From: a virus
DNA length: 32,169 bases
Reading direction: 5' to 3' (one strand)
Virus record (IMG/VR): IMGVR_UViG_3300045988_177309
Location: 1-32,169 of that record
Shown here piece after piece: positions 7,218-22,616 of this stretch. The notes under the pieces are model-generated. The model was not told the origin of the DNA and did not search any database. It worked only from the letters and a program-made list of their open reading frames with translations. The position numbers were made by a program, and so were the translations under genes. How positions within the stretch are numbered: position 1 is the first letter of the stretch; each line of letters begins with the position of its first letter.

Positions 7218-7506
7218 ATTATCAAACCTCCTTTTGATGATATTATTATAGCACCAATAAATTTATTTGTCAAGCCCCCGCACGCAAAAATATAAAAAAA
7301 GAAGGGATTTTTTTCCCTCCCTTTTGGCTTTACAAAGCTGAATATAACGCGATATATAAGGCAATCTACTATTATCATCTTCCAGATTGAAAAGAGCTTC
7401 TGTTAAAATCTTAACGCCTTTCTTATCCAACTTAAAATTATTCTTATATAATCCTCCATAATATTCACCTTACGCGCGGGGGATTTTACCCCCGCGTTTT
7501 CCTTTC

Positions 7507-7860
7507 TTAAAATTCCGGTATTTTAATCGTGTAAGTTTTTCTAATTGTAACTTCTACACGTTCGGGAACCTGTTTACAGACAAATCTGTCATTTCGCACA
7601 TATTCCCCGATTTCTTCATCTTGCCAACGCTGGCGCGTTTTATCCTCAAAGCGCAATGTGTTATATTTGCTTAACGGCAAATGCCACAAATAAACAAATT
7701 CGCGCTTGCCTATTAGCTTATGTTTATCGGCTTTGCGATAGTTGCGAGTGTGTTCAACTCTGCGCCGCTCAAGATTGTTAGTCGTGCCGACTTTAAGAAT
7801 AAAGTCATCATTTTCATCAAGGTAACAGCCCACATAGAGAAATTCTTTTTCATTATTCAT
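7507..7860 (-). CDS. GIY-YIG-like nuclease domain protein (117 aa)
   Basis: FLYVGCY...ILKVGTTNNLERRRVEH matches the GIY / YIG / R..E(H) spacing of GIY-YIG/T5orf172-type domains. Start overlaps the upstream gene by 8 nt. Confidence 0.5.
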   Translation of the reverse strand: MNNEKEFLYVGCYLDENDDFILKVGTTNNLERRRVEHTRNYRKADKHKLIGKREFVYLWHLPLSKYNTLRFEDKTRQRWQDEEIGEYVRNDRFVCKQVPERVEVTIRKTYTIKIPEF

Positions 7861-8245
7861 CTTTTTTCTTCCTCTTTTGGATTAGATTTATTTCATAAGA
7901 ATTTCCCTCATAGTCAAAGATGACTTGGCGTTCTTCGTTCGTGACTTGGAGACTTTCGACCTTTGCGTTCAGCATTTCCGCAATTAGCGCAATTAATTCA
8001 GCCTTTGCGCCGTTTTTCTTTCTTTCGCGCTTCTGGAATTTGTAATTTGTTCCGGTTTGCTTTTTGTGGTCGCAATTAGTCATTTTTTTAGCAACCTTCT
8101 TTTGATCCGGTGTTAAGTCGTACTCCGTAGGCTTGCCATGTTCGACCGCTTCATCATAGGCCATAACTTCGCGGGCTTCGGCTTCGCTTATGTCCAGCGT
8201 TTTCATTAGATTTTCAAGTTTCGCTTTTTCTTGTTCTTTGGTCAA
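7853..8245 (-). CDS. hypothetical basic protein (130 aa); paralog of 10390..10773
   Basis: Shares ...KTLDISEAEAREV...YD... and ...YKFQKRER... with the 10390..10773 product. Confidence 0.6.
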   Translation of the reverse strand: MTKEQEKAKLENLMKTLDISEAEAREVMAYDEAVEHGKPTEYDLTPDQKKVAKKMTNCDHKKQTGTNYKFQKRERKKNGAKAELIALIAEMLNAKVESLQVTNEERQVIFDYEGNSYEINLIQKRKKKDE

Positions 8246-8287
8246 TGGCTCTCAAACCTCCTTTTGGAGGAAAAGGGGCAAAACCCC

Positions 8288-8662
8288 TTAACCTTCCAAA
8301 CCTTCCTTGGCTTCATCGCTCAGCGTAAAATGCGCCTTACGCTTAACCTCAGTGCGAATGACGATGCCCTCATCCTTCAACTTTTTTACAAGCTGGTTTA
8401 TACGGGAATGGGTTATGCTATCATCATCAAGAGCCTTGACTACTTCGGTAATAGTCATACCATCCTTGGGAGCGTGAAACAGAATAGCCTTGATGCGCTC
8501 GGTAAGGATTTCGTTTTCTTCCTGATGGGCAGTAGGCTTGCGAGTGCTTGAGCTCTTGCGGCTTAGCAGTTCAATTTCATGTTCAATGCCTGCAACAAGG
8601 TCAGGACGAGAAACAACTTCGCTCAGGGTCAGCAGTTCGGTAAACATTTCTTTCTTAGTCAT
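8288..8662 (-). CDS. winged-helix-like DNA-binding protein (124 aa); paralog of 10776..11141
   Basis: MTKKEMFTELL..RPDLVAG.EHE..LL.RK...RKPTA.QEE...ITEV.K.LD....SR.NQL.KK.KD.G....EVKRKA.F is conserved with the 10776..11141 product. Confidence 0.6.
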   Translation of the reverse strand: MTKKEMFTELLTLSEVVSRPDLVAGIEHEIELLSRKSSSTRKPTAHQEENEILTERIKAILFHAPKDGMTITEVVKALDDDSITHSRINQLVKKLKDEGIVIRTEVKRKAHFTLSDEAKEGLEG

Positions 8663-8752
8663 AGTATCAACTCACTTTCTGGTTTTTAAGTGTGTCCTTC
8701 ACTTAATAGTGATGCCCTTGGGAGTAGAACCCTGCTCCCTTGGAACGATTAT

Positions 8753-8781
8753 AGTATACACCATAATGCCGTTGGTGTCAA
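8753..8781 (-). promoter_or_regulatory. consensus sigma70-type promoter TTGACA-17-TATACT (minus strand) with conserved leader ATAATCGTTCCAAGGG
   Basis: Plus-strand agtata 8753-58 and tgtcaa 8776-81 with a 17-bp spacer. Leader motif is shared with 13001 and 13936. Confidence 0.65.
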
Positions 8782-8857
8782 CAGTTTTTTGGAAAAAATG
8801 AAAAAGTCAAGGGAAAGTTTTTTACAAACTTTCCCTTGAAAATTATGTTAATTATTT

Positions 8858-9301
8858 TCAATAGCTCACCGGATATTCATTACCCCTATATTCACCATAA
8901 ATATATTCATTGTTATAACAATCATAAGCGCAAATATAATTGTTACTTTTCCAATCATCATCATAATAATCTCCAAGGGTTTGCAAATACGTTTTCACTT
9001 CTGCGGGAATCCCATCGGCGGGTTTACGATTAACGAATTTTTTTTCGATAATAAATTCTCCGGTATTTTCTGACCAATAACCAAGCACCATTCCCCTTTC
9101 CATGTTGTCGGGATTATCCCATTCCCTTATACACTTGCCGATGTTGCCATTTTTTTCAATTTCATAAACTTCCATTGGGAACATACCATTGAATGCCTTC
9201 CAATTCTCAGTTATGCAAATAGGTGTGCGGTCTACATCACACTCGTATTGATCATTCAGCTCCCTACACTTTACAACAAGATACTTTTTCATTTTCATCA
9301 A
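8858..9301 (-). CDS. hypothetical protein (147 aa)
   Basis: ORF track. TAA stop. Confidence 0.5.
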   Translation of the reverse strand: MMKMKKYLVVKCRELNDQYECDVDRTPICITENWKAFNGMFPMEVYEIEKNGNIGKCIREWDNPDNMERGMVLGYWSENTGEFIIEKKFVNRKPADGIPAEVKTYLQTLGDYYDDDWKSNNYICAYDCYNNEYIYGEYRGNEYPVSY

Positions 9302-9307
9302 TTCCTT

Positions 9308-9649
9308 TCATTTTTTAGTATACCTTATTTTATCATAAGGGGCTGAGCTTGTCAACCCCTTTATTACAAAATGGTTAATCCACTTTTTCCCATTTATTTT
9401 TCTTATCGTTCCATTTGTATAAGGTATAGCCATAATCTTCATCGTTTTCATAGGCCGGATTAGATACAGTTTACATCCATCATTATTACTTATTGTAAAA
9501 CTTGGCGTATAATAATCATCTGGATCTAATGTCCCTTGTAATATCAAGCCTGAATCTATTGCTTTTTGAATGGTATTGGCAAAATCGCGCGCGATCTCAT
9601 AAGCTTTAGTATTGCGCCGCAGTTTCAGTTCATCTTGAACAAGGTTCAA
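9308..9649 (-). CDS. hypothetical protein (113 aa; TTG start as given by track, first internal ATG far downstream)
   Basis: ORF track. TGA stop. A 32-aa ORF (9651..9749) lies immediately upstream in another frame. Confidence 0.45.
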   Translation of the reverse strand: MNLVQDELKLRRNTKAYEIARDFANTIQKAIDSGLILQGTLDPDDYYTPSFTISNNDGCKLYLIRPMKTMKIMAIPYTNGTIRKINGKKWINHFVIKGLTSSAPYDKIRYTKK

Positions 9650-9747
9650 ATATTTATGGAGATCATGGGCGCGCCCGCTTCAACGTTTATTCGTTCTCGT
9701 ATTTCTACGCGCCCCAGCTCATCAATTCGCCTTACTTCAAACATTTT

Positions 9748-10008
9748 TTAACCCTCCAACATTGTTATGGTTTCATCGCCGCTGGTAATTTCTGCGCATT
9801 GATAATTACCATTATCTATATCACAGCTAAGAACGTAGCCATAATTTTTTCTAATGTAATCCTTGACGCGCTCATAATCTTCTTCGGTTGCAATTCCGCT
9901 CTTATCCCAATTTTCTTTACAGTTGTCCAGCATCAGCGGCGCAATAACTGCATAAGGAACTTCAACATCCACATTCTCAATCTTACAAATCTGCAAAGTA
10001 ACTTTCAT
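9748..10008 (-). CDS. hypothetical acidic protein (86 aa)
   Basis: ORF track. RBS AAAGGAGATTAAAAAAATG. TAA stop. Confidence 0.55.
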   Translation of the reverse strand: MKVTLQICKIENVDVEVPYAVIAPLMLDNCKENWDKSGIATEEDYERVKDYIRKNYGYVLSCDIDNGNYQCAEITSGDETITMLEG

Positions 10009-10069
10009 TTTTTTAATCTCCTTTTTCTCTTATCTTTTGGAGAACCCCCTTGTCCTCCTGACATTATGT

Positions 10070-10098
10070 AGTATACACCATTTCGTTTATAAAGTCAA
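10070..10098 (-). promoter_or_regulatory. sigma70-type promoter TTGACT-17-TATACT (minus strand)
   Basis: Plus-strand agtata 10070-75 and agtcaa 10093-98 with a 17-bp spacer. Drives the 9748..10008 operon. Confidence 0.55.
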
Positions 10099-10214
10099 TA
10101 CTTTTAGGAAAAAAATGTTTGTCTAAATTTTCACAATTTTTCGTTAAAAAATTACCAGAGATTCTATATTGACAAAATTCTCGCCGGTCTCATCTGAGAG
10201 CGGCGAGTTGAATG

Positions 10215-10310
10215 TCAAGAGGTAATTTTTGTAACAATTTTGTAACAATTATAAAACTTTGCGATAAATTCTCATGATTTTTTTAATAAAATAAGAATTA
10301 TTATCAAGGT
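10215..10310. promoter_or_regulatory. operator-like direct repeats of TTGTAACAATT (tandem pair at 10222-10250, third copy at 10293-10305)
   Basis: Read from the sequence. Lies between the 10070 promoter and the terminator at 10363. Confidence 0.45.
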
Positions 10311-10362
10311 TTTCAACTCAAATTATTACAAATTCGTAACAATTTATGTAATAAATTAAAAA

Positions 10363-10395
10363 ATAAAAGCCCCTTGCGGGCTTTTGTTTTTATTT
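10363..10395. terminator. bidirectional intrinsic terminator (aaaagcccc-ttgc-ggggctttt)
   Basis: Hairpin with an A-run 5' and a T-run 3'. Lies directly after the minus gene ending at 10390. Confidence 0.65.
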
Positions 10396-10773
10396 TCGCG
10401 GACAACTCAAAGTTATTTTATATTTTACATTATCCAACAGGAAAGAAAATTCTCTTTCCACGTTTGTAATTTCCAGCTTTTCCGCGCCTTTATTCTCAAG
10501 CATTTGCGCCAATGCCGCAATTATTTCTTGCTTTGCCGCATTAGCTCTTCTTTCTCTCTGTTGGAATTTATAGCTTGTTTTTGTGCGCGTAATTGTCATT
10601 TCCTTGGCAATTTTTTTTTGTTCTGCGCTCAATTCGCCCAGCTTTTCCCCTGCGTCTATACGCCTATCATAGTCTAACACCTCTTTTGCCTCTGCCTCTG
10701 AAATTTGCAACGTTTTCATTATCTGCTGGATTTGTGGGGAGCTTGCGTTCCCCACGTTTTTGCGTTGATTCAT
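10390..10773 (-). CDS. hypothetical basic protein (127 aa); paralog of 7853..8245
   Basis: ORF track. Conserved motifs as listed for 7853..8245. Confidence 0.6.
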   Translation of the reverse strand: MNQRKNVGNASSPQIQQIMKTLQISEAEAKEVLDYDRRIDAGEKLGELSAEQKKIAKEMTITRTKTSYKFQQRERRANAAKQEIIAALAQMLENKGAEKLEITNVEREFSFLLDNVKYKITLSCPRK

Positions 10774-10775
10774 GC

Positions 10776-11141
10776 TTACTGCTCAATCGGCTTGTGCTCA
10801 ACTCCTGCGGCGAAAAAGTACGCCTTGCGCTTGACTTCTTCGCGCTCAATCGTTCCGGCGTCCTTGGCCTTCTTGATAAGCTGATTCAATCGGGAATGGC
10901 TCAAATCTGCTATGTCCAGCATCTTGAGAATTTCTGTTACTGTGCGGCCTTCGCCATCACTCAAAATCTCAATGACACGGGCGATTATTTTGTCACCTTC
11001 TTCCTGCTTTGCCGTGGGCTTGCGCGTTGCGTTCTTGCGGTTCAGCAGGTCAAGCTCATGTTCCAGCCCGGCTACAAAGTCGGGGCGCGCCTGAATGGTA
11101 GGCAGATTCAGCAGAGCGGTGAACAGTTCCTTTTTGGTCAT
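10776..11141 (-). CDS. winged-helix-like DNA-binding protein (121 aa); paralog of 8288..8662
   Basis: ORF track. The 29 nt spanning its start/5'UTR (11137-11167) are identical to 8659-8687. Confidence 0.6.
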   Translation of the reverse strand: MTKKELFTALLNLPTIQARPDFVAGLEHELDLLNRKNATRKPTAKQEEGDKIIARVIEILSDGEGRTVTEILKMLDIADLSHSRLNQLIKKAKDAGTIEREEVKRKAYFFAAGVEHKPIEQ

Positions 11142-11264
11142 AGTATCAACTCACTTTCTGGTTTTTTTGACTGTCCTTGTCATTTTTTATCTGAAGGGCA
11201 TTTCCTGCCCTTCAGCTTACGACTTATTATAACATGGGGGGCGTGGTTTTGTCAATAGGTTTTT

Positions 11265-11966
11265 TTAACTATTGAACAACTTTTTTTGCATTTTTTTGTG
11301 CTGACGCATACAATGAACAAAAATGCGCGTTTCTATCTCGACATCTTCAAGCCCTGTATGACTTTCAACAAAGTCATTATTGCCGCTAATATATTTGTAC
11401 AGCACTTCTGCCGAACATTGCGGCTGATTGTTTTTAGTCAAGTAGCCATTTTCTTGACAAAAACGCTTATAAGTTTTTTGCTTTGCAATGGTACTGCGTG
11501 CCATGCGAACGGTATCATGCCATTCTATACCCTTGGGCAGAAAATAGCGGTATTTGCTTTTTGTTATATATCTTTGCGTAGCATTAAGCGCGTCATAATC
11601 AAATTTTGCATTGTGCGCCATTACTACGGTTATACCATACTCTGCAATAACATCGACAATAGCCTTGCGAATTTCGTAAAGGCTTGCGATCATGCGTTTA
11701 CCTTCAAGAATTTGCGCATCATACATGCCCATTTTATCGGCGTAATAGGCACTCTGCATAAGATTGCGCTCCGCGTAGTAAATGTCGCGGTTGATAAAGC
11801 TAAAACGTTCATACACGTTGCCGGATTTGTCTACAACTTGCGCGCCCAAGTCATAAAAAAGCGCGTTTTTGCTTACCAGTTTATTATTCTCATCTCGATA
11901 GGTGTTAGCCGTTTCAGTATCTAATACAAGATAATAGCGGCGGCGTTGGTCGATTTTCTTTTCCAT
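11265..11966 (-). CDS. DEDDh-family 3'-5' exonuclease (DnaQ/epsilon-like)
   Basis: Exo I YLVLDTETAN, Exo II VVMAHNAKFDYDALN, Exo III ESHTGLEDVEIETRIF. Probable start is ATG 11966 (MEKKIDQ...) with GGAAGGA RBS. Track ORF extends to 12005. Confidence 0.8.
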   Translation of the reverse strand: MEKKIDQRRRYYLVLDTETANTYRDENNKLVSKNALFYDLGAQVVDKSGNVYERFSFINRDIYYAERNLMQSAYYADKMGMYDAQILEGKRMIASLYEIRKAIVDVIAEYGITVVMAHNAKFDYDALNATQRYITKSKYRYFLPKGIEWHDTVRMARSTIAKQKTYKRFCQENGYLTKNNQPQCSAEVLYKYISGNNDFVESHTGLEDVEIETRIFVHCMRQHKKMQKKLFNS

Positions 11967-12074
11967 CTCTTTTTTCCTTCCTGCGGGAACATTGCGCCCC
12001 CGCAAGTATTATGTTATCACAAGTTGCTTTATTTGTCAACAACTTTTTGCAAAATGGGAAAGAATTTCCATTAT

Positions 12075-12398
12075 GCGGGATTCATCAAATGCCATGCATC
12101 GCGGTTGCGTTTTTCATCATCAAAAAGTATAGCATACTTGTCATTGGCATGATTGTGCTTTGGTGTACCATAGGGAATAATTGTCATTTCATCCCATTTC
12201 ACGGAGGGTAAATGCTTTTTTTATGGCGGTATAGCCATTTGTTCCGCTTTTGGATAACCAGCTAATTATTCCAACTTTATATCCCTTGCGTTGCAGTTGG
12301 TGAATGCGCCGCGCCAATAGAGAAAAGTTTATAAGCGGTTTGGCTATGCGGTATGGTGTAGTATCAGAATTTTCGAGGTATTCAAGCCAATTTTGCAC
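12075..12398 (-). pseudogene. possible frameshifted HAD/NT5C-like remnant (69-aa ORF 12189..12398 plus 38-aa ORF 12075..12186 in another frame)
   Basis: ...GYKVGIISW... then, in a shifted frame, ...YGTPK...DKYAILFDDEKRN.D.WH. These resemble C-terminal HAD motifs. No N-terminal DxD motif is present. Confidence 0.25.
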
Positions 12399-16000: not shown

Positions 16001-17075
16001 TTTGATAAAATTAGATTATTCTTTAGAAACTCCAGAAGAAAGAGTACAATTAGTAGAGCAAATTTTGGCTGAATAGCCTAATCCTCCTCAAAAATACATA
16101 GAAATTTTAACTGATTATCTAGTTATGTGCATGGAGCGTCAAGAACGCCGTGAGCGCAAAATATTAACTGAGAATCGTTTGGCGACAGTTAATAAACGTG
16201 AAACCTCTTTTGAAGGTCTTGTATCACAACTAGAAAGTGGCGAAGATGGAATCTATAATCTCATTCATGAAAATAAGAACCAAATATTTAAACCAAAAGT
16301 AAGAATAACAAAAAAAGACATTGAAGAAATACCCGAACTCCAACAAATAAGAGATTCCATTGAATTTTGGGAAAAAAAGGCAAAAACCGCACAAGGTCGC
16401 GAAGCATTTATTATACGAAAAACAATTATTGAATTGCGCAAAGATCAATACCTTGTGAAAGACTCTTTCCGATAGCCCATTCAAGCAAGTTCAACCGCGC
16501 ATTCACGTGGTATCTATAAACTTACTTATGATGATAAAACTTGCAATTTTGATGAAGAAGGATATCCAATTCCTTCTGGTCTCTCTCTTTTGGATCCAAA
16601 CATTTGTTCGACAATCTTATGTTTATATTCTAAATTAAAACAAGATGGTTATAGTGAATTCATTGGTGATTTATACTATCTTATGGAAGATTTTGATAAA
16701 ATTTCTATTATTGCGCTTGCGCCTTATCCTATTTATCAAAAATTAGTATTATATAAAATAGATGGCCGACAAAACGCTGAAATACAAAATTTATTACAAA
16801 CAGAATTTGGTATTACTCATAGTCTTGAATACCTTTCGAGTCTTTGGCGTAATAAAATTCCTAAATTAATAGCCAGTGCCGCAGAAGATCAATATCTTGA
16901 ATGGTATTACCTTAATGCTGAAAAAGGCAAATATAAAAGATGTAGCTGCTGTGGACAAATTAAATTAGCTCATAATAAATATTTTTCTAAAAATAAAACT
17001 AGCAAAGATGGTTATTACAGCATTTGTAAAAAATGTCGCAATGCTAAAAGTAAAAAAAGAAAAAGGAAGAAATAA
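16001..17075 (+). CDS. hypothetical protein with C-terminal Zn-ribbon (CSCCGQ...CKKC) and basic tail; 1 in-frame TAG
   Basis: Track ORFs 16125..16475 and 16590..17075 share a frame through the TAG at 16473. The frame stays open upstream to a TTG at about 16001, 11 nt after AAAGGAGG. The start is uncertain and may be 16125. Confidence 0.5.
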
Positions 17076-21008: not shown

Positions 21009-22616
21009 TTGGATAAATCCCGAACCTAGCAAATTCATGATAAAGGTTTTGCAATGGTTGATGGATACGCCTATTATCGCACAGACGCACCTAATGAATA
21101 TAAGAAAATTCGTATTGGAGTAAAATCTGTTGAAGACGCTGTGCTTCAACTAGGTTCTTATTGCCCTAATCCAAAAGATAAAGGTAATCATGGTCCTGCC
21201 ATTAATAAAGGCATGATTATTAAAGCTTTAATGGAACATGATGTTAAAGAATAGCGGAGAATTTCTAATCTTTTTTATGAAATAAATGGTATTTATCAAA
21301 AAGTATGTAATTATTTTGCTTATCTTTATCGTTATGATTGGTATGTAGATCCAAAAGTTTATGAAGATGCCAATGTTGAGAAAGTCTTAAAAAACTTTGC
21401 TAGTGTATTAGATTTTCTTGATAAATCTTATATTAAAAAAGTGTGTGGCGATATAGCTTTAGAAGTAGTTAAAAGTGGCGCCTATTATGGATATATTGTT
21501 AATATAAACAAAAGCTTAGTATTACAATAGCTGCCGACTGATTACTGCCGCTCCCGTTATAATGTTGGTTCAACTCCTGCAATAGAATTTGATATGAGAT
21601 ATTTTGATACGTTTAGAGATACTAATTATCGTATGCGTATCTTAAAGTTATTTCCTGATGAATTCTCAAAAGGATATTTACTTTATAAATAGGGTAAATT
21701 ACAACCTGACTTTGCTGGAGATAATTAGGGAAGTTGGTATTTACTTGAACCAGAAAATACTATAAAATTTAATTTATTGCATCATGATTTACCAATGTTT
21801 GTGAATGCAATTCCTGCGATTCTTGATTTGGATGCCGCCCAAGACTTAGACCGCAAGAAACAAATGCAGCAATTATTAAAAATTGTTGTACAAAAATTGC
21901 CACGAGACAAAAATGGTGATTTAATATTTGATGTTGAAGAAGCTAGAGATATACACAACAATGCAGTAGAAATGTTGCGTCGTGCTGTTGGAGTTGATGT
22001 TTTAACAACATTTACAGATGTTGATTCTATTGATATGTCTGATAAAAATACTTCAACCACTAAAGATGATTTAGAAAAAGTTGAACGCACTGTTTATAAT
22101 GCATTAGGTATTTCGCGCAATTTGTTTAATACGGATGGCAATTTATCTTTGGAAAAATCAATTCTTAATGATGAATCTTCTATGCGTAAATTATTGCTTC
22201 AATTTGAACAATTCTTTGATCGTATTATAAGTCAAAAATATAAAAATAGTAAATGTATTTTTAATTTTTGTATGTTAGAAACGACTCAATATAATTATAA
22301 AGAATTAGCAAAATTATATAAAGAACAATCTTAGATTGGTTTCTCAAAGATGTTACCTTAGATTGCTCTTGGACATTCTTAGAGTTTCATTTTGAATTCT
22401 GCCCACTTTGAGAATGATATATTAAAGTTATATGAAATTATGATTCCTCCGCTTATGAGTTCTACTATGAGTAGTGATTTAATTTTGGGTAACAAAGAGC
22501 AAAGTAATTAGACAAAAAATCAAACAAATTAGGATAGTAAAGAAATTGGTCGTCCAGAAAAATCTGATGACCAAAAGAGCGAAAAAACTATCTAGAATAA
22601 AGAATCTATGAGTTAA
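21009..22616 (+). CDS. portal protein (putative, about 535 aa); at least 10 in-frame TAGs
   Basis: Track ORFs 21054..21254 and 21777..22334 share a frame that stays open from TTG 21009 (5 nt after GGAGGTG) to TAA 22614-16. Synteny: terL, nuclease, this gene, scaffold. Size is typical of portals. Confidence 0.55.

What the first reader, a model, noticed from the sequence alone, without database searches (positions are those of the whole stretch)
7853..11200. Tandemly duplicated two-gene module (wH-like protein + basic 'ISEAEA' protein) with a 29-nt identical patch across the start codon
Gene pairs 8288..8662 + 7853..8245 and 10776..11141 + 10390..10773 are clear paralogs (about 45-50% identity by eye, same order and orientation). 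Between them sits an unrelated 3-gene insert. Although the proteins have diverged, 29 nt spanning the RBS and start of the first gene are identical (8659-8687 = 11137-11167). This implies either gene conversion or strong selection on a regulatory RNA/DNA element there. The function of the pair is unknown. A diverged duplicate regulator pair could serve an immunity/anti-immunity or early/late switch role.
Basis: seen in the sequence. Interest (0 to 1): 0.6.

Follow-up and report, generated by a model that had tools for sequence, protein, structure and literature searches.

The report
Conserved ribosome-binding leader on duplicated phage operon
A gut phage carries two ancient copies of a small two-gene operon, and the identical 30 bases in front of each copy are the ribosome-binding region of the messenger RNA, kept unchanged by selection; this is real but fairly ordinary.

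Summary
A1/A2 are 54% identical and B1/B2 45%. The exact shared run is 30 nt (8658-8687 = 11137-11166, minus strand): 25 nt of 5' UTR plus ATGAC. The duplication is ancient (dS about 2.5). It is kept in most relatives of this ~175-kb Firmicutes phage clade.

The patch is almost invariant across relatives. Only 1 of 25 positions varies among 14 A1 orthologues, against 83% of third codon positions. Synonymous differences start at codon 2. So purifying selection explains it, not a recent conversion tract.

The patch reads as an extended Shine-Dalgarno: AGAAAG(U)GAG(U)UGAU pairs with the 16S 3' tail, with canonical spacing to AUG. Similar GGAGTTGAT-type sites precede unrelated genes in this phage group. 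Eleven nt upstream lies a 4-5 bp hairpin with covarying stems and an invariant AAGGAYA loop. A protein-bound translational operator is therefore not excluded.

The conserved 5' region also serves as a recombination point. Two independent single-module relatives have crossovers in the patch or at codon ~42.

A is a winged-helix protein. B belongs to a large unannotated family with no recognisable fold. There is no evidence for an immunity or early/late switch.

The parts
11226..11255 (-). Promoter of module 2: TTGACA, 18-nt spacer, TATAAT, with TG before the -10 hexamer
   Evidence: Consensus scan gives 12 of 12 matches. The promoter is conserved in relatives.
11191..11215 (-). 5'-proximal hairpin of the A2 leader (CUGAAGGGCA-ggaaa-UGCCCUUCAG)
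   Evidence: Present in the minimum-free-energy fold; z = -3.2 for the whole leader. Relatives keep a hairpin here with a different stem sequence (GGGGGU/ACCCCC).
11168..11182 (-). Small hairpin, UGAC-AAGGACA-GUCA, 11 nt upstream of the SD
   Evidence: the stem covaries among 12 distinct sequences and the loop is invariant apart from C/U.
11137..11166 (-). Patch copy 2: AAAAACC + extended SD AGAAAGUGAGUUGAUAC + U + AUGAC
   Evidence: Exact 30-nt identity with copy 1. Duplex with the 16S tail is -15 kcal/mol. Conserved in relatives.
10776..11141 (-). A2: 121-aa protein with N-terminal helices, a conserved RKPT..Q..N linker and a winged-helix domain
   Evidence: dN/dS is 0.06-0.23.
10390..10773 (-). 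B2: 127-aa basic protein ('ISEAEA' family). Its start lies 2 nt after the A2 stop.
   Evidence: dN/dS is 0.10.
10365..10385 (-). Intrinsic terminator after B2
8858..10008 (-). Variable insert: ORFs of 86, 113 and 147 aa, plus an AbrB/MazE-like remnant at 9637-9744. The insert has its own promoter (10070-10098) and terminator (8807-8839).
   Evidence: Gene content of the insert differs among relatives.
8753..8781 (-). Promoter of module 1: TTGACA, 17-nt spacer, TATACT
   Evidence: 11 of 12 matches.
8720..8739 (-). 5'-proximal hairpin of the A1 leader. It is variable and flanked by a CCAAGGG direct repeat. It is absent in L001.
8688..8704 (-). Small hairpin, AAGUG-AAGGACA-CACUU
8658..8687 (-). 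Patch copy 1, identical to 11137-11166
8288..8662 (-). A1: 124-aa winged-helix protein. This allele was exchanged by recombination relative to its flanks.
   Evidence: Against L008, dS is 0.58 for A1 but 0.06-0.18 for the neighbouring genes.
8273..8289 (-). Hairpin in the A1-B1 spacer (AAGGGG-uuuug-CCCCUU). Module 2 has no counterpart.
   Evidence: Read from the sequence. A G+C-rich hairpin is conserved at this position in relatives.
7853..8245 (-). B1: 130-aa basic protein with a TTG start (ATG in L013) and its own AAAGGAGG SD
   Evidence: dN/dS is 0.00-0.04.

Best explanation
The window comes from a ~175-kb phage of gut Firmicutes (Clostridia). Early in this phage lineage, a two-gene operon was duplicated in tandem. 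The operon encodes A, a small winged-helix protein, and B, a small basic protein of unknown fold.

Each copy is now a separate transcription unit. It has its own sigma-70-type promoter, a 5'-terminal hairpin, a small hairpin with the loop AAGGAYA, and then the 30-nt patch.

The patch is the translation-initiation region of the A mRNA. It has an A-rich tract and then an extended Shine-Dalgarno. The SD can pair with almost the whole 3' tail of a Firmicutes-type 16S rRNA: AGAAAG, a bulged U, GAG, one mismatch, then UGAU. AUG follows at the canonical distance.

Nearly every base either pairs with an invariant partner (the ribosome) or sets the spacing. Purifying selection has therefore held the patch constant in both paralogues and across phage lineages, while the coding sequences drifted to saturation at silent sites.

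As the best-conserved DNA shared by the two copies, the patch and nearby conserved codons also act as crossover points. These crossovers delete one module or swap A alleles.

Shown: the anatomy, the conservation, the complementarity, the stem covariation and the recombination breakpoints. Inferred: that ribosome pairing is the selective cause, that transcription starts at the predicted promoters, and that A binds DNA.
For: Conservation of the patch:
- The identical run is 25 nt of UTR plus ATGAC.
- A1 and A2 are saturated at silent sites (dS 2.5; third-position identity 35%). The first synonymous difference is at codon 2.
- Among relatives whose A1 is 67-100% identical, 1 of 25 patch positions varies. 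For codon positions 1/2/3 the figures are 43/31/83%. For A2, 3 of 25 patch positions vary.
- Spacers and ribosome-binding sites of B1, o86 and o147 vary in the same genomes.

Complementarity to the ribosome:
- RNAduplex pairs the patch with GGCUGGAUCACCUCCUUUCUA as 6+3+4(+3) bp, -15 kcal/mol.
- The two variable sites inside the SD are A to G opposite the terminal U (A-U to G.U) and U to A at the predicted bulge.
- G[AG][GA]TTGAT followed by a start codon precedes many unrelated genes of this phage group; 17 of 40 occurrences are at ORF starts.
- The exact 17-mer plus ATG precedes unrelated ORFs in Lachnospiraceae and Erysipelotrichaceae MAGs.
- Start-proximal extended SD pairing is documented for S. 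aureus (PMC13009471).
- The patch is predicted to be largely unpaired, with no conserved structure sequestering it.

Other anatomy and recombination:
- Promoters and terminators.
- Recombination: L023 switches from A2-type to A1-type inside the patch. L017 switches at the RKPT-coding segment. Both have a single module.
- The A1 allele has been swapped between near-identical genomes, with its 5' boundary at the start codon.
Against: - An SD alone does not obviously require the bulged U, the mismatched U, the ACU before AUG or the upstream AAAAACC to stay fixed, yet they are nearly invariant.
- The duplex energy is high but not the strongest in the window.
- The host, and therefore its 16S 3' tail, is unknown. 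A B. subtilis/S. aureus-type tail was assumed.
- The adjacent covarying hairpin, with an invariant loop at a fixed distance, suggests something more than ribosome pairing.
- Exact-match database scans bias towards finding identical copies.
Confidence: 0.58

Rival explanations
1. The 48-nt block (covarying hairpin with AAGGAYA loop, A-rich linker, SD region) is a translational operator. A protein binds it and competes with the ribosome. The binder could be B, A or another phage factor. This would give autogenous control and cross-control of the two paralogous operons.
For: - The hairpin stem is 100% paired in 12 distinct sequences, with double compensatory changes at 3 of the 4 core pairs. The covariation score is 0.66, against 0.21 in shuffles (0 of 500 reach it) and at most 0.15 in slid controls.
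- The loop and the hairpin-to-AUG distance are invariant, with no indels.
- The hairpin occurs only at the two A leaders in the window.
- Conservation exceeds that of second codon positions.
- The layout resembles the T4 gp43 operator: a hairpin about 40 nt upstream plus sequence overlapping the ribosome-binding site (PMC3014915).
- B is basic and has no known fold.
Against: - No binding data exist.
- Only three stem haplotypes are seen, so there are few independent compensatory events.
- Distant phages keep the exact 17-mer but not the AAGGAYA hairpin, and their A and B proteins are only 30-45% identical.
- The same 17-mer plus ATG serves unrelated bacterial genes.
- A and B show no RNA-binding family signal.
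Confidence: 0.24
2. The patch is a double-stranded DNA operator. The winged-helix A proteins, or another phage regulator, bind it downstream of both promoters and act as a roadblock or autorepressor.
For: - A has a MarR/ArsR/F-93-like winged helix.
- A1 and A2 share recognition-helix residues, HSR(I/L)NQL(V/I)KK.
- The patch is specific to the two A promoter regions.
Against: - The patch has no dyad symmetry and no further half-sites in the window above chance.
- Compensatory changes in the adjacent stem point to a single-stranded (RNA) constraint.
- Distant phages carry the identical 17-mer but have quite different recognition helices.
- The position, +60 to +90 from the promoter and exactly over the SD and AUG, fits an RNA role better.
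Confidence: 0.08
3. The identity is a by-product of recent gene conversion between the two copies and has no function of its own.
For: - Recombination between the copies demonstrably occurs.
- Nucleotide identity is raised (83%) over the first 76 nt, including the N-terminal codons.
- A2 in L008, L037 and L010 carries a 9-12-nt duplication of the start region that looks like an imprecise repair or conversion scar.
Against: - The patch is the same across genomes, not only within one.
- Synonymous differences start at codon 2, and the upstream stem differs. A conversion tract would therefore have to coincide exactly with the UTR block in every lineage.
- Variability is 1 of 25 positions, against 83% at silent sites.
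Confidence: 0.06

Closest known systems
[quoted passage not shown]
   Same: Complementarity runs beyond GGAGG into the GAUCA part of the 16S tail. One unpaired position is tolerated inside the helix. The region usually counted as spacer takes part in pairing, so it is constrained. G.U can replace A-U.
   Different: Here the pairing also covers the extreme 3' CUUUCU, the core is interrupted (GUGAG instead of GGAGG), and the host ribosome is unknown. Nothing was tested experimentally.
T4/RB69 gene 43 translational operator, and RegA and gp32 targets (PMC3014915)
   Same: These are phage early mRNAs with a small hairpin a few tens of nt upstream of AUG, followed by unstructured sequence overlapping the ribosome-binding site. 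The operator is more conserved than the coding sequence.
   Different: No repressor has been identified here. There is no sequence similarity. Both proteins are small and unrelated to gp43, RegA or gp32. The operator role is only inferred.
MarR/ArsR/SSV1 F-93-type small winged-helix transcription factors
   Same: The predicted fold of the C-terminal 60 residues of A matches: three helices plus a beta-hairpin wing.
   Different: Sequence scores fall below every Pfam threshold. A has a distinct N-terminal helical part and a near-invariant RKPT..Q..N linker. A occurs as 2-5 paralogues per phage genome.
Conserved boundary ('linker') sequences at phage gene junctions that mediate mosaic exchange (from general knowledge of lambdoid phage mosaicism)
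   Same: A short conserved non-coding block sits at the 5' edge of a gene whose alleles are swapped between genomes. Crossovers map to it.
   Different: Here the block has an evident expression function, so recombination is probably a consequence of conservation and not its cause.

Membership tests
Extended Shine-Dalgarno / translation-initiation region | Lies immediately upstream of the start codon of a real gene | tested here: met
   The patch ends in ATGAC of A1 and A2. Both genes are under purifying selection, with dN/dS at most 0.23.
Extended Shine-Dalgarno / translation-initiation region | Complementary to the 16S rRNA 3' tail beyond the CCUCC core, at canonical aligned spacing | tested here: inconclusive
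   Pairing is 6+3+4 bp at -15 kcal/mol, with 7 nt from the GGAGG-equivalent position to AUG. This was computed against an assumed B. subtilis-type tail, because the host 16S is unknown.
Extended Shine-Dalgarno / translation-initiation region | The same motif is used by other genes of the same phage or host | tested here: met
   GGAGTTGAT-type sites precede unrelated genes. The exact 17-mer plus ATG precedes unrelated bacterial ORFs.
Protein-bound translational operator (T4 gp43-like) | Conserved hairpin upstream of, and contiguous with, the ribosome-binding site | tested here: met
   Covarying 4-5 bp stem, invariant loop, fixed spacing.
Protein-bound translational operator (T4 gp43-like) | Specific binding by a repressor that lowers translation | not testable with these tools
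   Needs EMSA, toeprinting or reporter assays.
Gene-conversion tract | Identity extends over silent sites; the sequence is shared within a genome but differs between genomes | tested here: not met
   Silent differences start at codon 2. The patch is identical across 12 distinct leaders from many genomes.
Known RNA families (Rfam 15) | Match to a curated covariance model | tested here: not met
   No hit in either leader at E up to 1.
MarR/ArsR-like winged-helix DNA-binding proteins (protein A) | Helix-turn-helix plus beta-hairpin wing fold | tested here: met
   AF2 model, pLDDT 83. Helices at 71-78 and 85-97, strands at 101-106 and 109-114. Foldseek PDB hits are MarR, ArsR, MepR and F-93, with probability 1.0 and E about 1e-3.
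MarR/ArsR-like winged-helix DNA-binding proteins (protein A) | Sequence score above the family's curated threshold | tested here: not met
   Best Pfam hits are MarR_2 at 21.5 bits (cut-off 27) and Sigma70_r1_1 at 19.8 bits (cut-off 22.5). NCBIfam and PADLOC give nothing above cut-off.
Any described family for protein B | Sequence or fold match | tested here: not met

The most novel reading that the evidence does not exclude
The hairpin (AAGGAYA loop) plus the 25-nt leader is a dedicated translational operator shared by both paralogous operons. One of their own products recognises it, most plausibly B, which would then represent a new RNA-binding fold. The two ancient copies would thus be cross-regulated at the level of translation. 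The exceptional conservation would reflect dual recognition by the ribosome and the repressor.
Probability: 0.2. Interest if true: 0.55.

Novelty: new member of a known kind. Interest (0 to 1): 0.3.

Why it matters
This is a clean natural example of a ribosome-binding region conserved more strictly than the protein it serves. It has stayed constant through an ancient duplication and across a whole clade of large gut Firmicutes phages. That fits recent evidence that Firmicutes ribosomes read long, start-proximal SD helices.

It also defines a widespread and entirely uncharacterised early-gene pair: a winged-helix protein plus a basic protein whose family has at least 749 members. It provides a 48-nt leader element that could be tested directly for translational control.

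Practically, the invariant patch is a good marker for this phage clade and a good CRISPR target. At least one natural type I-C-like array already carries a spacer against it.

Tried and rejected
- blastn of 7500-12100 against 50,697 GenBank phages: no match.
- Rfam scan of 7400-12200 at E up to 1: nothing in the leaders.
- Pfam, PHROGs, NCBIfam and PADLOC for A and B: only sub-threshold winged-helix hits for A, and nothing for B.
- PDB sequence profiles: nothing significant.
- The AFDB50 fold library was not available.
- Extra copies or half-sites of the patch in the window: none above chance.
- A conserved structure sequestering the SD or AUG (riboswitch or thermosensor type): minimum-free-energy folds of six leaders show no common pairing of the patch.
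- Diversifying selection on A1 as the reason for its divergence from L008: rejected, because dN/dS is 0.14 and dS is raised, which indicates allele replacement.
- Toxin-antitoxin or defence-system readings of the A-B pair: no family support.
- Search for an sRNA complementary to the patch: not done beyond the window-wide mismatch searches.
Full report
**1. What is in the sequence**

All genes of the region lie on the minus strand. In transcription order they are:
- a DEDD-type exonuclease (11265-12005);
- A2 (10776-11141) and B2 (10390-10773);
- an insert with ORFs of 86, 113 and 147 aa;
- A1 (8288-8662) and B1 (7853-8245, TTG start);
- a GIY-YIG/T5orf172-like gene (7507-7860).

A1 and A2 are 54% identical (E 1e-40). 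B1 and B2 are 45% identical (E 2e-29). The longest exact match between the two modules is 30 nt, 8658-8687 = 11137-11166. On the coding strand it reads AAAAACCAGAAAGTGAGTTGATACT|ATGAC. The next longest match is 11 nt. At up to three mismatches the 30-mer occurs only at these two places in the window, and no shuffle produced a match.

One important qualification applies: 25 of the 30 bases are 5' UTR, and only ATGAC is coding.

**2. Each module is its own transcription unit**

The consensus scan finds TTGACA-18-TATAAT (12/12, with TG) at 11255-11226 and TTGACA-17-TATACT (11/12) at 8781-8753. Intrinsic terminators lie after B2 (10385-10365) and after the insert (8839-8807).

Downstream of each promoter comes a 5'-proximal hairpin, then a small hairpin, then the patch. 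The two A-B junctions differ. In module 2 the A2 stop and the B2 start are 2 nt apart. In module 1 there is a 42-nt spacer with a G+C-rich hairpin and a separate AAAGGAGG site for B1.

**3. Origin and relatives**

The window also holds matches to phage portal, virion-structural and sigma-factor families, so it is phage DNA. There is no DNA match among GenBank phages.

Protein and pattern searches retrieve many metagenomic contigs of 146-179 kb. Several of these are binned as Clostridium sp. or Lachnospiraceae MAGs.

In the close clade the layout exonuclease - A2 - B2 - variable insert - A1 - B1 - GIY is conserved. This holds for L005-L008, L020, L025/L037, L026 and L041. More distant phages, whose exonuclease is about 50% identical, keep the same double layout (L021/L022) or carry 3-5 A paralogues (L003, L004, L030).

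The duplication is ancient. Between A1 and A2, dS is about 2.5 and third-position identity is 35%. B1/B2 are also saturated. All four genes are under purifying selection against their orthologues, with dN/dS of 0.00-0.23. Both copies are therefore functional.

**4. The patch is held by selection, not merely by conversion**

The IMG/VR contig that contains the patch (L001/L002) is a different phage from the window. Its A1 is 71% and its A2 82% identical to the window's, yet both of its leaders carry the identical patch.

I collected 12 distinct versions of the last 48 nt of the leader from many genomes. They contain no indels. Inside the SD part only two positions vary: A/G in CC(A/G)G, and U to A in GAAAG(U/A)GAG.

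Variability by class of position:

| Set | Codon pos. 1 | Codon pos. 2 | Codon pos. 3 | Patch |
|---|---|---|---|---|
| 14 distinct A1 orthologues | 43% | 31% | 83% | 1 of 25 positions |
| 9 distinct A2 orthologues | 29% | 16% | 66% | 3 of 25 positions |

In the same genomes the ribosome-binding sites and spacers of B1, o86 and o147 vary freely.

Between A1 and A2 of the window, synonymous differences start at codon 2 (ACT/ACC, AAG/AAA, AAA/AAG, TTT/TTC). A conversion tract would therefore have to stop exactly at the start codon in every lineage. Purifying selection on the leader is the economical reading.

**5. What the patch is**

The patch resembles the complement of the Firmicutes 16S 3' tail, AGAAAGGAGGUGAUCC. 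That tail sequence, 3'-UCUUUCCUCCACUAGG-5', is taken from general knowledge of B. subtilis and S. aureus.

RNAduplex pairs AGAAAG, then GAG after one bulged U, then UGAU after one mismatch, at -15 kcal/mol. This is among the stronger sites in the window. The position equivalent to the last G of GGAGG lies 7 nt from AUG.

The two natural variants inside the SD fit this model. The A to G change lies opposite the 3'-terminal U, so A-U becomes G.U. The U to A change lies at the predicted bulge.

The same design recurs at unrelated genes of this phage group. G[AG][GA]TTGAT followed by a start codon 11-14 nt later accounts for 17 of 40 occurrences. Examples are aaGGAGTTGATaaaattATG at 263-997 and aaaGGATTGATACTATG before a 59-aa gene in L005.

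An exact-match scan for GAAAGTGAGTTGATACTATG in metagenomes and genomes found it in front of unrelated ORFs. These are in Lachnospiraceae and Erysipelotrichaceae MAGs and in other samples. In all but one of these unrelated contexts the ATG opens an ORF. The same scan also found the sequence upstream of the distal A copy in the distant phages. Their A proteins are only 30-40% identical to the window's. Exact-match searching biases towards identical copies, so I treat these hits only as evidence that the sequence works as a ribosome-binding site.

Recent work on S. aureus shows by cryo-EM and toeprinting that Firmicutes ribosomes use extended, start-proximal SD helices. In those helices, bases usually counted as spacer pair with A1543/U1544, one position is unpaired, and G.U can replace A-U (PMC13009471).

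Folding of six leaders shows no conserved structure that sequesters the patch. Rfam has no match.

**6. The neighbouring hairpin**

Eleven nt upstream of the AGAAAG lies a 4-5 bp hairpin with the loop AAGGA(C/U)A. Three stem versions occur: AAGUG/CACUU in A1 leaders, UGAC/GUCA in A2 of the window and some relatives, and UGUC/GACA in other A2 leaders.

The four core pairs are formed in all 12 distinct sequences. Three of them show changes on both sides. The covariation score is 0.66, against 0.21 in shuffles (0 of 500 reach it) and at most 0.15 when partners are slid. In the window this hairpin exists only at the two A leaders.

This supports a real RNA structure, although only about two independent compensatory events underlie it. 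The distant phages that share the 17-mer do not share the hairpin.

The arrangement of a hairpin followed by unstructured sequence overlapping the ribosome-binding site is that of the T4 gene 43 translational operator (PMC3014915). I therefore keep a protein-bound operator as the main rival, and as the most novel reading not excluded.

**7. Recombination at the conserved 5' region**

Two groups of relatives have a single module: exonuclease - A - B1 - GIY.
- In L023 (a 174-kb contig) the promoter, 5' hairpin and small hairpin are A2-type. The coding sequence is A1-type from codon 1, so the crossover lies inside the patch.
- In L017/L018 the sequence is A2-type up to the conserved CGCAAGCC (RKPT) segment at about codon 42, and is then 90-100% identical to the window's A1.

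The window and L008 are 96-100% identical around A1 but only 78-90% identical within it. dS is 0.58 for A1, against 0.06-0.18 for A2, B1, B2 and GIY, and dN/dS is 0.14. The A1 allele was therefore exchanged, with its 5' boundary at the start codon.

A2 in L008/L009/L037 and in L010/L011 carries a 9-12-nt in-frame repeat of the start region directly after the patch. It is a consequence of the conserved block, however, and does not explain it.

**8. The proteins**

The A model (pLDDT 83) has N-terminal helices, a low-confidence linker and a winged helix. The linker carries the near-invariant K42-P43-T44...Q47...N50 motif. The best PDB matches are MarR, ArsR, MepR and SSV1 F-93 regulators. All sequence-family scores are below threshold.

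The function of the pair remains unknown. A DNA-binding regulator with a partner is the most that can be inferred. Nothing supports an immunity/anti-immunity or early/late role.

**9. Verdict**

The finding is real. It is best explained as an ancient tandem duplication whose A genes share a strongly constrained translation-initiation leader, consisting of an extended SD plus a small structured element.

It is a new example of a known kind of feature. Its interest is moderate, mainly because of the degree of conservation, the covarying hairpin and the uncharacterised A-B family.

Noticed in passing
L027 (Ga0129314_1005447), whole locus; protospacers at window 8651-8684, 11130-11163, 8379-8412 and 11811-11843: L027 is a CRISPR array of 69 repeats (ATTTCAATCCACGCTCCCCACGAGGGGGAGCGAC, type I-C-like). 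At least 8 spacers match this phage clade at up to 4 mismatches. One spacer is the patch itself plus the first A codons, so it hits both copies. One matches the window's A1 exactly (34/34). One matches the exonuclease gene with 1 mismatch. In the repeat orientation shown, 3 of the 4 window protospacers are followed by GAA (a TTC PAM on the other strand), and most clade matches are too. This is a host clue.
   Followed up: partly
window 9375-9744 (minus strand): Only the first ~32-40 codons of an AbrB/MazE-like gene remain (MFEVRRIDELGRVEI...); the gene is 104 aa in L008. The following ORF (9308-9649) lacks the first 16 codons of its L008 homologue and differs from it by a frameshift near 9452. 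The insert between the two modules therefore looks partly decayed, and its content varies among relatives.
   Followed up: partly
window 10231-10343 (minus strand), inside the 370-nt AT-rich gap 10009-10389: Three copies of ATTGTTAC occur, two of them 11 nt apart, plus an ATTTGTAA variant. They lie between the B2 terminator and the promoter of the 86-aa gene. The whole window has 4 copies against 1.3 expected (5 of 100 shuffles reach 4). This could be an operator or iteron cluster for a DNA-binding protein such as A.
   Followed up: partly
L008 5984-6024, L009 4-44, L037 12560-12600, L010 4984-5020: In several relatives the A2 gene has a 9-12-nt in-frame repeat of the start region directly after the patch (ATGACTAAGACC-ATGACC..., ATGACTAAG-ATGACT...). 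This gives MTKT- or MTK- N-terminal extensions and looks like a scar of imprecise recombination at the patch.
   Followed up: no
window 16590-17075 and 21777-22334: A 161-aa ORF matches only the C-terminal third of a phage sigma-factor family and also matches HNH endonuclease families. A 185-aa ORF matches only positions 241-420 of a 501-position portal profile. Several large genes in this window may be split, possibly by introns, homing endonucleases or frameshifts.
   Followed up: no
window 8720-8745 versus L001, L005, L006, L012 and L013 leaders: The 5' part of the A1 leader carries a hairpin of very variable length and sequence. It is flanked by a CCAAGGG direct repeat. It is absent in L001 and about 60 nt long in L012 and L013, so it behaves like an insertion-prone cassette.
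   Followed up: no
L003, L004, L014, L030: In more distant phages the A family is present in 2-5 copies within a few kb. Each copy has its own TTGACA/TATAAT promoter, and the first codons (ATGACTAAGAARGAAATG) are nearly identical. B is present once or twice. A is thus an expanding paralogous family in these phages.
   Followed up: partly
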